This document shows positions 56,701 through 64,000 of a DNA stretch of 64,000 nt, in pieces (the first letter of the stretch is position 1; each line of letters begins with the position of its first letter). The position numbers are program-made. Source of the DNA: Escherichia coli (GTDB lineage Bacteria > Pseudomonadota > Gammaproteobacteria > Enterobacterales > Enterobacteriaceae); assembly GCF_030013595.1 (NCBI RefSeq), contig NZ_CP122769.1; one strand, given 5' to 3'.

Positions 56701-59700
56701 ATCCGATATTCTCCTTCATTTTATTAGAAGTGATAAAAGTTACTTTACCTAAACTTCTCTCTCAATATTTGTAAGGCTCTCATTTGATTTTTGTCAAACA
56801 TTAATCTGGAAGACGGAAAAATCATTTCTTTTAATACGTTTTACAGAAATCCTCCTCCGTTATTTCGGATATAGTTTGAATCATTATCAAAAACGGGGTG
56901 CAGCCATGCGTAAGAGTTATACATTTGGTATTCCATTTGGACTCCAGCGTGAATCAGGACTCTTTTTAGATATTACAGAGGTCAGCCGGGGTATTGACTG
57001 TAACTGCATCTGCCCCGCTTGCAAAACTGATCTGTTAGCAAAGCAGGGGGAGGTCAAGCTTTGGCATTTCTCACACAGTACAGCTGTAGCCGGTGACTGT
57101 GATGGTCTGATGGAAGCCATCCGGGGAAAGATTATTGAAGTCATCAACGAGCACCAGGTTCTTGGTTTCCCAAATCTTCTCGCTGGCGACGATGGTGGGC
57201 CGGTTTCACTGAATGAGGTTAGTGGAAGCGGCAGTATGTTCGGAGGCACAGCTGATCTGTTCGTAAAGGTTAATGATTTATGTGTGGCCGTCTTTCTGGA
57301 CAGGGATCGCAGCATTTCAGAGAAGTTAACCTTTGACCATCTTCATCCTTCCGAAAGAGTTGCCGCATTGCGTATCGATCTTCCTGATATTGAATATGAA
57401 ATCAGTCAGGTGCAGCTCGGGCGACGTAAAACAACATACAGTGAGTGCATTGAAAGCCTGATCATTGATGAGACCAGTTCCCGGGAATGGCTATATCATC
57501 CATTAATGCATGAACTTGAATCTGAACCTCTTCAGGAGTATCGGGGACGGGAGCCTTCAGAGGAAGGGCCTCTTCTTCAGCGCCTTGCTGACTGTAAGAT
57601 GAAATTGCCTGATATCCTTCCGGGCAGTCATAACGCGCTAGTCAGGTTACAGCAGGATACGATTGTATGTCTGTGTCGGTTAACGGTTCGGGCTTATGAC
57701 ATCGCTCAGACCGATGAATTTCCTTTGTTCCTTCGCTATTTCAGGTTGCACTGCCTGGAAAACAGCGAACATGTCAGTTACGAAAGACTGATCTGCTGGC
57801 AGGAAATGATTTCAAAAACCCAGGAAGGCCAGTCCTTGACACAAAACGAACTTGAATATCTTCATGAGATTGTCCGCATCGCCTTTTACAATCACCGGCT
57901 TAACAATGTCAGTATTTCAGATGTTAAAAACCATGACACTGGAAAGAAGAGCGGCAGGGTAGAGTCACAAAACTATTCACTTTTATAAATAACTTGGGCT
58001 TTGCGCATTAAACCCTTGCCGCAGGCGGTGTACCGCATATCCGGCACAGACAGTCAGTTTTTTCTGGCAGCTTAAATTTGACACTGCTTAATATAGTGAT
58101 TCATTAAACAGGTTCAGTATGCTGCCAGAACGTTTTAGTCGTAATGGGCGTCCGTTAGTTTTCAACTAACTGAACGACGACCAGCCTGCCGCCTTCCTCC
58201 TTTGACAGAACAAACTGAGCGTTATTCGTCAGTTCAATTTTTTCCCCAATGGCAATCTGTCGTTTATCCGGTAATGACATAAGCCCATTTATGCCTTCAT
58301 TTACTAACCACCACTGATCGTTATGGAAAACAAAATACCCAACTCGTTTCCTTTGTGCATCGGTTGTGCGCTCATTTGGCGCAATGAGGCGATTCACATG
58401 CCACGCATAGATTGACTGCCCGCTCCACACCATCAACCGGTGGTCGTCAGGACGATAACTGCCTTCCTTTCGGGATGAATATAAATTTAGAACCGGTAAT
58501 TTACCCTTGTATGGCGTACCGCAGTAGGGACAAACCGGCTTTGTCTTACCTGAGAAAACGTACCATTTCTGTTCACACGCCTTGTTCTGGCAGGGCTGTA
58601 TCAGATCGACTGTTTTAACCAGGGCACTTTCCCACTCATCGGCGGTCGGGCGTTTATTGGCATCGTGTAAGCCATCAATAAAGGCGCGTTCAAACAAAGG
58701 CGTCAAATAAGGGCCCATGATGGTGTAAGGAATTTTCTCCGGGTCAGCCCAGGGCAGTGAAAAGGAGGATATCTGACTGACTTTGACTGCATTGCTTTTG
58801 TCTGTCGGATGTTCAATGAAGAGTGCCTTCTCACCCATAGATAAGGTCTCATCACGTACTTCATCCGACATGTCATGTATTTTTCCGCCACGTAGCGGAT
58901 GACGGAAGAACAGATACATGTAGATAAGCACCGACAGCGCATGACGGTCAGTAGAAATGCTTGGCAATACGCGGTTCGGATCCTCTTTGGAAAGATGGCT
59001 GGTTTTCACCACTTCCGGAGCGATAAAATCCGGGGTGCCCACGACGTCGGGAGGATACTTTCCAGGGACAACCAGGCCGTCTACGTCAATGATGCAGGCA
59101 TGTCCCATTTCTGGATCGATAAGCACGTTTTTATAGCTTAGATCGCTGTGACAGAGACCTGCCGCATGCATCCTTCTGACGGCTCTTGTTAGCAGCAGAC
59201 AGACCTTGAGATAGGTAAGCGTATTGCCTCGTTCACGTGGGTCGAGAAATTTATTCTGGTTGCTGGCGCTGGCAAACCATTTGCCTTCCTTTTCACGGCC
59301 TTTTATGCCAAGAAAATCATCGTTTTTAGAGCCGTATTTAAAGAAAAAGTAGCTTTTGTAGGTTGGAACCACGATGCCGATTTTATCCCCATGCTCAACA
59401 ACGTGGGTCGGCCAGCAAAACAGGTCCTTCCAGTATTCACCTCCGGACTGGCCAAAAATGTTTTGCCTGTAGCGTCCGGTGATCATATCAATCCGATCCC
59501 GGGCCTGCTCGTTCTGCGGTTTATGATAAAAAGCGACGACGTATGATTTATCAGGCGAGAAGTAAACATCCTTCATCGAGCCCGAACCAATTACCTCGTC
59601 AACATACTGGACTGTTTCGCCGTCCTTTGTTTTGCACGTAACAATATTTGCCATATTGATCACCGAAGAAGCGTATCCCTTACCACAACACCGCAATAGT

Positions 59701-62700: not shown

Positions 62701-64000
62701 GTACGCCAGGGCATCAGAAGGGGTTCCATCAGTCATCAGGAATACCAGAGGACGCCAGTCTCCTTTTGTATCACCATCTGAGCGACGTACATCCCGTTCA
62801 ACACACTGCATCAGACATTCAAGGGCAGCACCGGTGAACGTCCCGCCTGCGCTTGGCACAACGATGTCAGAAAACTGGAAGTCTTCCAGCGGCGTGAGAG
62901 GAATGAACTCACGCGCCTCATTGTCATAGGTGATAATGGAGATATGAACGCTTTCGAGGGCGTAGGGATCCTGGCGAAGAGCGCTAAGCATCGCCTGAAT
63001 TCCAACGTTAACGGAATGGATGGACTCACCGCGCATCGAGCCGGATGTGTCGATAACAAGGTAAACAGGCAGGCGGCGCATCACATGTAATTCCTCAGGT
63101 GCGAGACAAACGAATCTGATTCTGAAGGCTCACCAATTGCCCTGAGTTTCCAGCCTGTAGCCTCGCGTATCAGCTCGGCAAAAACCATGGAGCGCTGGCT
63201 GGCGAAGGCGGGTCCGCCAGAAAGATCGAATCGTGCCATTTCAATATTACGGGCATCTACTGCCCGGATGAAGGCATTCTGAACTTTACCAAAGTGCTGC
63301 TGGAGCTTTTCACCATTGTAGATCTGAACGATGAACACAATTTTCTCGTACTGAGCGTCAAGGGAATTCAGGCGCACAATAATTTGCTCATCGTCACCAT
63401 CACCGGCTCCGGTTCGGTTATCGCCCGTCAGCCAGATATTTCCTGACTTATGGCGAAGGCTGTTGAAAAAGATGATATCGCCATTCACAAGCGTTGGTTT
63501 ACCATTTTCCACATTGCCGAGATCGGTCACCTTTCCGGCTGAATTACACAGGAAAGCGATCACATCAAGGTCGTATTCTTCTTCTTTTTTACCAAAGATC
63601 CCGCCGAGGAAACCTTTCTTTTCCTCATTAATATCCCAACCCAGGCCGATAGTAACGGACGAGAGATCGTATTCATTTTTTTTCAGGCTTACGCCCTGGC
63701 CTTTGCTCAGACTGACAGACATGACATCCCCTTAATTAATAAAATTATAAGACCACGTTTACTTCTGGCGGCGGCGGTGGCAGGTCTTCAAGACCGATCA
63801 CTTCTTTTTTGCTGGACTCCACTTTCTGACTGCCTACCGAAATGCTCGCACTGACCCATTTAAAGAAAGCTTTAATCGTCGAACTGTCAGCTGTATCGAG
63901 CTGAACCACGATTTCAGTGATTTCTTTGAGGACGCTGGTATCGGCATCATGCCCGGCTGCACATGCCACAACAACGCCGGTTCTGGCCGCTTTAAAGTCA

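What the first reader, a model, noticed from the sequence alone, without database searches (positions are those of the whole stretch)
58155..64000. TerY-P-type cluster: kinase, PP2C phosphatase, vWA paralogues and TerD-family protein
A Ser/Thr kinase, a PP2C phosphatase, a vWA protein with a zinc-ribbon tail, a short TerY-like vWA protein, a TerD-family protein and the 3' end of a further TerY-like vWA gene are co-oriented on the minus strand. This matches the TerY/phosphatase/kinase triad described in comparative analyses of tellurite-resistance loci and, as I recall, reported as an anti-phage system (TerY-P). So it is known, not novel. It implies the tellurite-resistance (ter) operon probably continues beyond the right edge.
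Basis: partly seen in the sequence, partly recalled or inferred. Interest (0 to 1): 0.5.

Follow-up and report, generated by a model that had tools for sequence, protein, structure and literature searches.

The report
Known IncHI2 plasmid terY–phosphatase–kinase operon
This is the already described terY/terX/phosphatase/kinase arm of the tellurite-resistance island of IncHI2 resistance plasmids, so it is real and intact but ordinary, and it is only a distant look-alike of the "TerY-P" system shown to block phages.

Summary
Observation confirmed. Six co-oriented minus-strand genes lie at 58155-64000: a Ser/Thr kinase, a PP2C phosphatase, TerY3 (vWA + TerY_C), TerY2 (vWA), TerX (TerD family) and the 3' end of TerY1 (vWA). 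All have strong profile support and intact catalytic or metal-binding motifs.

The DNA is 100% identical to hundreds of IncHI2 plasmids. The literature already names the cluster terY3Y2XY1W / terY-CYXYW. Novelty: already known.

One correction. This cluster is the classical, architecture-defined TerY-P module. It is not a sequence-level member of the experimentally tested anti-phage TerY-P. PADLOC's TerY/PP2C/STK_OB models hit a bona fide TerY-P (E. coli G3/10) at 1e-108 to 1e-265 and miss every window protein. Pairwise BLASTP is not significant. The known phage inhibition of this island maps to terZ/C/D, outside the window.

Small additions:
- The conserved unit is a 6-7-gene cassette, not a triad.
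- The kinase ends in a Cys4 zinc ribbon plus an FHA-fold domain that Pfam does not detect.
- Its glycine loop looks WNK-like.
- TerY1 and TerY2 carry an invariant LPPPPPE tail.

Most likely function: a metal-dependent Ser/Thr phospho-switch attached to the Ter complex. This is inferred, not shown.

The parts
58155..59654 (-). Ser/Thr protein kinase, 499 aa. Layout: ePK-fold kinase domain (about aa 1-350), Cys4 zinc ribbon (aa 355-378), FHA-fold domain (aa 385-498).
   Evidence: Pkinase 9.9e-10. AlphaFold2 pLDDT 95.7, pTM 0.94. Foldseek PDB hits are ASK1, CaMKII, NIK and PAK1. Motif conservation was measured across 60 homologues. RefSeq start.
58521..58592 (-). Cys4 zinc ribbon of the kinase: C355, C360, C375, C378.
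   Evidence: The four Cys are conserved in 57-58 of 60 full-length homologues and are invariant in the 41-sequence C-terminal alignment. Weak zinc-finger Pfam hits appear in some members.
58161..58502 (-). FHA-fold C-terminal domain of the kinase (aa 385-498).
59680..61317 (-). PP2C-family Ser/Thr phosphatase, 545 aa. The catalytic domain covers about nt 59731-60468. A divergent N-terminal extension of ~283 aa covers nt 60469-61317.
   Evidence: PP2C_2 1.8e-46. The metal-binding Asp motifs are present. N-terminal aa 176-236 resemble the Ig/cadherin-like module of SraP (4m03, 3.9e-5). One homologue carries He_PIG PF05345. In BLASTP against the three distant orthologues the alignments begin at query aa 122-192, so the N-terminus did not align, and the aligned part is 40-49% identical.
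61317..62357 (-). TerY3, 346 aa: vWA domain with an intact MIDAS, plus the C-terminal Cys-rich TerY_C metal-binding domain (nt 61320-61709).
   Evidence: VWA 4.9e-13 and TerY_C 6.6e-53. DCSES and LLTDG motifs.
62443..63081 (-). TerY2, 212 aa: vWA protein with an intact MIDAS and a C-terminal LPPPPPEIQLVL tail.
   Evidence: VWA 3.7e-12. Motifs and tail conservation. 35% identical to E. coli K-12 YegL, E 6e-19.
63081..63722 (-). TerX, 213 aa: TerD-family protein carrying the conserved acidic GDNRTGAGDGDDE and DLD motifs of the TerD family.
   Evidence: TerD 6.5e-52. 1.5e-37 to the solved TerD structure 3ibz. GDNRTGAGDGDDE and DLD motifs.
63745..64000 (-). 3' end of terY1, a vWA gene cut by the window edge. 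It is 212 aa in full and ends in LPPPPPEVNVVL.
   Evidence: The ORF fragment is listed. The full gene lies at L001 25746-26384 in the identical plasmid.

Best explanation
This is the terY1-terX-terY2-terY3-PP2C-kinase operon of the IncHI2 tellurite-resistance (ter) island. It is the classical 'TerY-phosphorylation' module.

Shown:
- Six intact, tightly packed co-oriented genes.
- Three vWA proteins with intact MIDAS sites, one of which also carries a Cys-rich TerY_C domain.
- A TerD-family protein.
- A catalytically intact PP2C phosphatase.
- A catalytically intact eukaryote-like kinase that ends in a zinc ribbon and an FHA-fold domain.
- The cassette is conserved in order and sequence across Gamma- and Betaproteobacteria.

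Inferred: the cassette is a divalent-metal-dependent, reversible Ser/Thr phosphorylation switch.
- The vWA and TerD proteins act as metal- or ligand-sensing scaffolds.
- The kinase phosphorylates itself or a partner.
- The FHA-fold domain reads the phospho-mark, and PP2C resets it.
- The output modulates the membrane-linked TerZABCDE complex. That complex carries the tellurite-resistance, colicin-resistance and phage-inhibition phenotypes.
For: - Domain and motif evidence.
- Identity to IncHI2 plasmids, including pKL53-L (CP030920). That plasmid's cluster is named terY3Y2XY1W in PMC11003894.
- terW, the biosynthetic genes and terZABCDE(F) follow in the identical plasmid.
- The order VWA-TerD-VWA-VWA/TerY_C-PP2C-kinase is conserved in Thiorhodococcus, a betaproteobacterium and Ignatzschineria. 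Identity is 55-75% for all proteins except PP2C.
- All three components have significant homologues in E. coli K-12 YegL/PphC/YegI. In that triad YegI is an active, autophosphorylating kinase, and PphC dephosphorylates it (bioRxiv 10.1101/819920 and 10.1101/303594).
- The metal theme recurs: TerD genes, TerY_C, MIDAS sites, and P-type cation ATPases beside distant relatives.
- Clones carrying terXY1W together with terZ-F survived tellurite better than clones carrying terW with terZ-F, or terB-F alone (PMC11003894).
Against: - No substrate, signal or output is known for these proteins.
- Tellurite-resistant subclones lack terY2, terY3, PP2C and the kinase (pNT3B, pJS4, pLK18), so these genes are not needed for that phenotype.
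- In Thiorhodococcus the cassette has no terZABC within 10 kb, so it may act independently of the Ter complex.
- The canonical FHA phosphothreonine-binding Arg and Ser are not evident, and Pfam FHA does not match. Phospho-reading is therefore inferred from the fold alone.
- The promoter and terminator scan gave no more sites than shuffled sequence.
Confidence: 0.6

Rival explanations
1. The cassette is itself an autonomous anti-phage defence system, working like the Gao-type TerY-P independently of terZABCDE. It would sense infection and act through phosphorylation.
For: - It has the same vWA + PP2C + Ser/Thr kinase logic as systems that protect against T7-like phages and Autographiviridae (PMC7699616; bioRxiv 10.1101/2022.08.12.503731).
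- In Thiorhodococcus the cassette occurs without other ter genes.
- Related kinases sit in varied multi-gene loci that include a PIF1 helicase and AIM24.
- TerY-P triads also accompany CoCoNuT restriction systems (PMC11090510).
- The PP2C N-terminus evolves fast.
Against: - It is not a sequence-level member. PADLOC TerY/PP2C/STK_OB models miss it while hitting the positive control, and BLASTP is not significant.
- The kinase tail differs: zinc ribbon plus FHA fold rather than OB fold.
- The kinase is 65-86% identical across bacterial classes.
- The phage inhibition of the R478 island was abolished by insertions in terZ, terC and terD (PMC12054061 citing Whelan 1995).
- No PADLOC system was found in the neighbouring genes.
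Confidence: 0.25
2. The cassette is a dispensable, possibly silent passenger of the ter island. It would have no role under normal conditions and be kept only by linkage to terW/terZABCDE.
For: - Tellurite resistance needs only terBCDE(F) or terZ-F.
- PMC12054061 reports that, within terY-CYXYW, only terW appears conserved across the isolates compared.
- No phenotype has been assigned to terY2, terY3, PP2C or the kinase in the literature I could search.
Against: - All ORFs are intact, with every catalytic and metal-binding motif preserved.
- Gene order is conserved and protein identity is 55-75% across Gamma- and Betaproteobacteria. Short tails such as LPPPPPE are invariant. These point to strong purifying selection.
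- The cluster is >=99% conserved in 732 plasmid records.
Confidence: 0.1

Closest known systems
terW-Y1-X-Y2-Y3 (terY-CYXYW) region of IncHI2 plasmids R478 and pKL53-L
   Same: It is the same locus. The window is 100% identical to IncHI2 plasmids, including pKL53-L CP030920 (hit H10). The gene names come from PMC11003894 and PMC12054061.
   Different: Nothing differs in sequence. The published names stop at terY3, so the PP2C and kinase genes downstream are usually left unnamed and have not been studied experimentally.
Classical TerY-P triad (Anantharaman, Iyer & Aravind 2012), as summarised in PMC11090510
   Same: A TerY-like vWA protein, a PP2C phosphatase and a Ser/Thr kinase with a C-terminal zinc ribbon. 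The triad is linked to tellurite-resistance genes and is proposed to be a metal-sensing phosphorylation switch. All of these features are present here.
   Different: - The conserved unit here is larger: three vWA paralogues plus a TerD-family protein.
- The kinase has an FHA-fold domain after the zinc ribbon. The summary I could read does not mention this domain.
- I could not read the primary paper.
Experimentally validated TerY-P anti-phage system (Gao et al. 2020 type; E. coli G3/10; PADLOC TerY/PP2C/STK_OB)
   Same: The same three superfamily domains in the same order: vWA, PP2C, kinase.
   Different: - There is no detectable pairwise similarity and no match to the PADLOC models.
- G3/10 is a stand-alone three-gene system next to a type I R-M system.
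- Its kinase carries an OB fold (model name STK_OB) rather than a zinc ribbon plus FHA fold.
- It has no TerD partner.
- PGAP labels the G3/10 genes 'TerY-P anti-phage system...'. No such label appears on the IncHI2 genes in any record listed.
E. coli K-12 yegL-pphC(yegK)-yegI triad
   Same: All three proteins are significant homologues: vWA 35% identical, E 6e-19; PP2C E 2e-5; kinase E 1e-5, including the C-lobe extension and a CPxC motif. Kinase and phosphatase activities, and dephosphorylation of YegI by PphC, have been shown biochemically.
   Different: - YegI is a 648-aa two-pass membrane protein with no FHA-fold tail.
- PphC lacks the long N-terminal extension.
- There is a single vWA protein and no TerD partner.
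- The physiological role is unknown.

Membership tests
IncHI2 ter island, terY/terX arm (terY3Y2XY1W) | Sequence identity to the described locus on IncHI2 plasmids such as pKL53-L | tested here: met
   100% identity over 6 kb to many IncHI2 plasmids, including CP030920. 732 records are >=99% identical.
IncHI2 ter island, terY/terX arm (terY3Y2XY1W) | Linked terW and terZABCDE(F) on the same replicon | tested here: met
   These genes are present beyond the window edge in the identical plasmid pMUB-MIN9-1. For the window's own replicon this is an inference from identity.
Classical TerY-P triad (architecture-defined) | TerY-like vWA protein with MIDAS | tested here: met
   VWA hits. DxSxS and TDG motifs are present in all three paralogues.
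Classical TerY-P triad (architecture-defined) | PP2C phosphatase encoded adjacently | tested here: met
   PP2C_2 1.8e-46. The catalytic Asp motifs are present.
Classical TerY-P triad (architecture-defined) | Ser/Thr kinase with a C-terminal zinc ribbon | tested here: met
   ePK fold. The Cys4 ribbon is conserved in 57-58 of 60 homologues.
Classical TerY-P triad (architecture-defined) | Conserved gene neighbourhood across taxa | tested here: met
   The same order occurs in three distant proteobacterial genomes. A simple triad occurs around a 49%-identical kinase.
Anti-phage TerY-P system (Gao type; PADLOC TerY/PP2C/STK_OB) | Match to the family's profile models | tested here: not met
   No PADLOC hit for the vWA, PP2C or TerD proteins at E<=10. 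The kinase hits only mad6, PD-T4-6 and MkoA weakly. The positive control, G3/10, scores 1e-108 to 1e-265.
Anti-phage TerY-P system (Gao type; PADLOC TerY/PP2C/STK_OB) | Kinase fused to a C-terminal OB fold | tested here: not met
Anti-phage TerY-P system (Gao type; PADLOC TerY/PP2C/STK_OB) | Stand-alone three-gene cassette | tested here: not met
   Here the unit is a 6-7-gene cassette with TerD-family genes, embedded in the ter island.
Anti-phage TerY-P system (Gao type; PADLOC TerY/PP2C/STK_OB) | Protection against phage on heterologous expression | not testable with these tools
   This needs plaque assays. I found no published test of these genes.
FHA domain (kinase C-terminus) | FHA beta-sandwich fold | tested here: met
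FHA domain (kinase C-terminus) | Sequence signature and phosphothreonine-binding Arg/Ser | tested here: inconclusive
   Pfam FHA matches 0 of 41 members. His419 and Asn452 are conserved, but there is no conserved Ser three residues before the His. The position equivalent to the GR Arg is Q/R/K.

The most novel reading that the evidence does not exclude
The IncHI2-type cassette (three TerY vWA proteins, TerX, PP2C and a kinase with zinc ribbon and FHA fold) could be a distinct, still untested signalling or defence system rather than a mere variant of TerY-P. Under this reading:
- A WNK-like kinase, with its catalytic Lys in the glycine loop, and its FHA-fold reader respond to ion changes (Ca2+, Zn2+) caused by phage or colicin attack.
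- The TerD and vWA proteins sense those changes.
- The invariant LPPPPPE tails dock the components together.
- The cassette then switches the Ter membrane complex or an unknown effector.
Probability: 0.2. Interest if true: 0.5.

Novelty: already known. Interest (0 to 1): 0.2.

Why it matters
The cluster sits on IncHI2 plasmids that spread mcr-1 (H1) and other resistance genes. It occurs in 337 of 5,426 complete E. coli genomes and 1,304 plasmid records, so its function bears on plasmid fitness. There are two practical points.

First, defence-annotation tools will not call this locus TerY-P. Anti-phage activity should therefore not be carried over to it from the Gao-type system.

Second, the PP2C and kinase genes remain experimentally untouched, although they are highly conserved. 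The FHA-fold tail, the WNK-like glycine-loop lysine and the LPPPPPE tails give concrete sites for mutagenesis.

Tried and rejected
- NCBIfam gave only sub-threshold hits for all six proteins. It also has no model that hits the G3/10 TerY-P proteins, so it could not discriminate between the two families.
- Pfam on the C-terminal domain family gave no FHA hit, only weak zinc-finger hits.
- The promoter and terminator scan of 56000-64000 found no more sites than shuffled sequence. A weak hairpin at 58015-57996, downstream of the kinase stop, is only a candidate terminator.
- The primary papers were not held: Whelan 1995 and Anantharaman 2012. Their content is cited second-hand from PMC12054061, PMC11090510 and PMC11003894.
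- I looked for a defence island around the cluster. PADLOC found no known system in the flanking genes. The only hits were TerW to WYL (4e-5) and an AAA ATPase to DolB/IetA (2e-4).
- My first coordinate offset for the upstream genes was wrong, because the window carries IS insertions that pMUB-MIN9-1 lacks.
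Full report

Yes. The ORF listing shows six co-oriented minus-strand ORFs filling 58155-64000.

| Gene | Coordinates | Support |
|---|---|---|
| Kinase | 58155-59654 | Pkinase 9.9e-10 |
| PP2C | 59680-61317 | PP2C_2 1.8e-46 |
| TerY3 | 61317-62357 | VWA 4.9e-13, TerY_C 6.6e-53 |
| TerY2 | 62443-63081 | VWA 3.7e-12 |
| TerX | 63081-63722 | TerD 6.5e-52; 1.5e-37 to solved TerD 3ibz |
| TerY1 (3' part) | 63745-64000 | Last 74-84 codons of a 212-aa vWA gene, seen whole in an identical plasmid |

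The longest-ORF starts for the kinase and TerY3 over-extend. Orthologue lengths and RefSeq place the starts at 59654 and 62357. Junctions are 1-nt overlaps or gaps of 22-85 nt, as expected for one operon. The consensus promoter and terminator scan adds nothing beyond chance.

**2. Where does the DNA come from?**

Window 58000-64000 is 100% identical to many IncHI2 conjugative plasmids of Escherichia, Salmonella, Enterobacter and Klebsiella. Of 1,304 plasmid records with a match, 732 are >=99% identical. The cluster is present in 337 of 5,426 complete E. coli genomes, mostly on plasmids (293 places) and sometimes chromosomal (56 places, for example in O104:H4).

In plasmid pMUB-MIN9-1 the sequence beyond the window edge carries, in order:
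- the rest of terY1;
- terW;
- a six-gene cluster (DUF4236, HpcH/HpaI lyase, StiP, a hypothetical gene, PRTase, ATP-grasp);
- terZ, terA, terB, terC, terD and terE plus a vWA gene, on the opposite strand.

The literature names the cluster terY3Y2XY1W (PMC11003894, on pKL53-L, which is hit H10) or terY-CYXYW (PMC12054061).

**3. Are the enzymes intact?**

*Kinase.* An alignment of 60 homologues (31-86% identical) shows conserved H169-x-D171-L-S-x-x-N176, D190-x-D192 and A212-P-E214, plus a four-cysteine ribbon at C355/C360/C375/C378. AlphaFold2 gives a very confident model (pLDDT 95.7, pTM 0.94). Foldseek returns 1,960 PDB matches with E<=0.001, and all 50 top-listed hits are eukaryote-like protein kinases.

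*PP2C.* The usual metal-binding motifs RDDD, DGAG, GDG, TDG and DDRT are present.

*vWA and TerD proteins.* All three vWA proteins keep DxSxS and TDG. TerX keeps GDNRTGAGDGDDE and DLD.

**4. What is the conserved unit?**

Kinase orthologues of 67-75% identity lie in the same gene order in three distant genomes:
- Thiorhodococcus (Chromatiales): (TerD)-VWA-TerD-VWA-VWA/TerY_C-PP2C-kinase;
- a betaproteobacterium: the same order;
- Ignatzschineria: the same order from TerX to the kinase (the first vWA gene was not called), followed by terZABCDE-type genes.

In Thiorhodococcus the cassette sits among housekeeping genes with no terZABC within 10 kb.

Identity to the IncHI2 proteins is 74% (TerY1), 67-69% (TerX), 66-71% (TerY2), 55-59% (TerY3) and 67-75% (kinase). 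PP2C is only 40-49% identical, and in BLASTP its alignments begin at query aa 122-192. The unit is thus a 6-7-gene cassette rather than a bare triad, and the phosphatase N-terminus is its fast-evolving part.

More distant kinase relatives (32-49% identical) occur in several settings:
- a plain VWA-PP2C-kinase triad;
- tandem-kinase loci;
- a locus with several vWA genes, AIM24, a PIF1-type helicase, TerY_C, PP2C and two kinases.

Two of these four loci also carry an adjacent P-type cation ATPase.

**5. Is it the anti-phage TerY-P?**

PADLOC gave no hit to the PP2C, vWA or TerD proteins even at E<=10. The kinase gave only weak generic kinase hits. To be sure the models exist in this library, I recovered a TerY-P system that had been used experimentally. 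The source was E. coli G3/10, via the supplement of bioRxiv 10.1101/2022.08.27.505566. Its three proteins hit PADLOC TerY, PP2C and STK_OB at 3.5e-173, 5.6e-108 and 9e-265.

Pairwise BLASTP between the window proteins and the G3/10 proteins is not significant: E 0.047, 0.2 and 0.33. PGAP labels the G3/10 genes 'TerY-P anti-phage system ...'. In the records listed it labels the IncHI2 genes only generically.

Bell et al. (PMC11090510) make the same distinction. Classical TerY-P kinases carry a zinc ribbon. The modules shown to defend against phage are 'TerY-P-like' and carry an OB fold.

By contrast, the window proteins are significantly similar to the E. coli K-12 triad:
- YegL, E 6e-19;
- PphC, E 2e-5;
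- YegI, E 1e-5.

The kinase and phosphatase activities of that triad, and the dephosphorylation of YegI by PphC, have been shown in vitro.

The phage-inhibition and colicin phenotypes of the R478 ter island were abolished by insertions in terZ, terC and terD (PMC12054061 summarising Whelan 1995). A terC deletion in Klebsiella lowers phage resistance (same paper). Those genes lie outside the window. I found no experiment on terY2, terY3, PP2C or the kinase.

**6. Small additions from this work**

(b) *WNK-like glycine loop.* The glycine loop reads IGSGSMK28DVY, and strand beta3 reads VVAFY43 with no lysine at the AxK position. K28 is conserved in 44 of 60 homologues, and position 43 is Tyr or Phe. 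This mirrors WNK1 (IGRGSFKTVY ... VEVAWCEL), whose sequence I verified against PDB entries. It suggests a glycine-loop catalytic lysine. I could not check this in the model coordinates.

(c) *LPPPPPE tails.* TerY1 and TerY2 both end in an invariant LPPPPPE[VI]x[VL]VL tail in all four genomes compared. The tail is absent from TerY3 and from YegL. It is a candidate docking motif.

(d) *PP2C N-terminus.* The N-terminal extension of PP2C contains an Ig/cadherin-like stretch: aa 176-236 match SraP (4m03) at 3.9e-5, and one homologue carries He_PIG.

**7. Mechanism**

The best-supported reading, at confidence about 0.6, is a metal-dependent reversible Ser/Thr phospho-switch attached to the Ter complex. 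In this model:
- the vWA MIDAS sites and the TerD-family protein act as metal or ligand sensors and scaffolds;
- the kinase writes the mark;
- the FHA-fold domain reads it;
- PP2C erases it.

The presence and integrity of the parts, and their co-conservation, are shown. The signal, the substrate and the output are inferred.

There are two rivals:
- *Autonomous anti-phage system, confidence about 0.25.* It is supported by analogy to the Gao-type system and by the Thiorhodococcus context. It is weakened by the failed membership tests and by the mapping of phage inhibition to terZ/C/D.
- *Dispensable passenger, confidence about 0.1.* It is contradicted by strong purifying selection.

**8. Verdict**

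It is wrong only in implying membership of the experimentally validated anti-phage TerY-P family. Novelty: already known. Interest is low (0.2).

Noticed in passing
window 4060-7150: A 249-bp tandem repeat array with 12.6 copies and 73% matches. In the related plasmid pMUB-MIN9-1 the homologous stretch, between a TraC-family transfer gene and parA, has no listed gene.
   Followed up: partly
window 22550-25250: A ~2.7-kb segment with GC ~0.51 that is absent from pMUB-MIN9-1. It is an IS66-family element: TnpA accessory protein (6.3e-85) and IS66 transposase (2e-142). It sits inside the region that aligns to the rsp (IncHI-type conjugal transfer protein RSP) gene of pMUB-MIN9-1.
   Followed up: partly
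window 45662-47786: A ~2.1-kb segment with GC ~0.53 that is absent from pMUB-MIN9-1. It is an IS21-family element: transposase (6.7e-84) and IstB helper ATPase (4.8e-89). It is inserted among a run of ~300-aa hypothetical genes.
   Followed up: partly
window 62443-62478 and 63745-63780 (C-terminal codons of terY2 and terY1): Both short TerY proteins end in an invariant LPPPPPE[VI]x[VL]VL tail. The tail is conserved in Thiorhodococcus, a betaproteobacterium and Ignatzschineria, and is absent from TerY3 and from E. coli YegL. It may be a docking motif.
   Followed up: partly
window 59568-59591 (kinase aa 22-29) and 59525-59539 (aa 39-43): The glycine loop IGSGSMKDVY, together with the missing lysine at the beta3 AxK position (VVAFY), resembles WNK kinases (WNK1 IGRGSFKTVY ... 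VAWCEL). K28 is conserved in 44 of 60 homologues. The catalytic role of K28 has not been verified.
   Followed up: partly
window 35905-42193: A second vWA-containing cluster lies on the same plasmid: AAA ATPase (352 aa), a DUF3150 protein, a 672-aa vWA protein and a toprim-domain protein. PADLOC gives only weak AAA hits to DolB and IetA (2e-4).
   Followed up: partly
L001 26851-27315 (terW, ~850 bp beyond the window's right edge): TerW, the reported regulator of the ter operon, weakly matches the PADLOC WYL-domain model (4.1e-5). WYL is a ligand-sensing regulator domain that is common in defence loci.
   Followed up: no
window 56876-57988 (+), convergent with the kinase gene: A 370-aa hypothetical protein with an N-terminal Cys-rich motif (CNCICPAC). 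It has no NCBIfam or PADLOC match and is not part of the conserved cassette in other genomes.
   Followed up: partly
L009 5136-8006 and L011 14317-16968: P-type cation ATPases (Cation_ATPase_N/C type) lie a few genes downstream of distant relatives of the kinase in two of the four loci examined. This hints at a link between this kinase family and divalent-cation transport.
   Followed up: no
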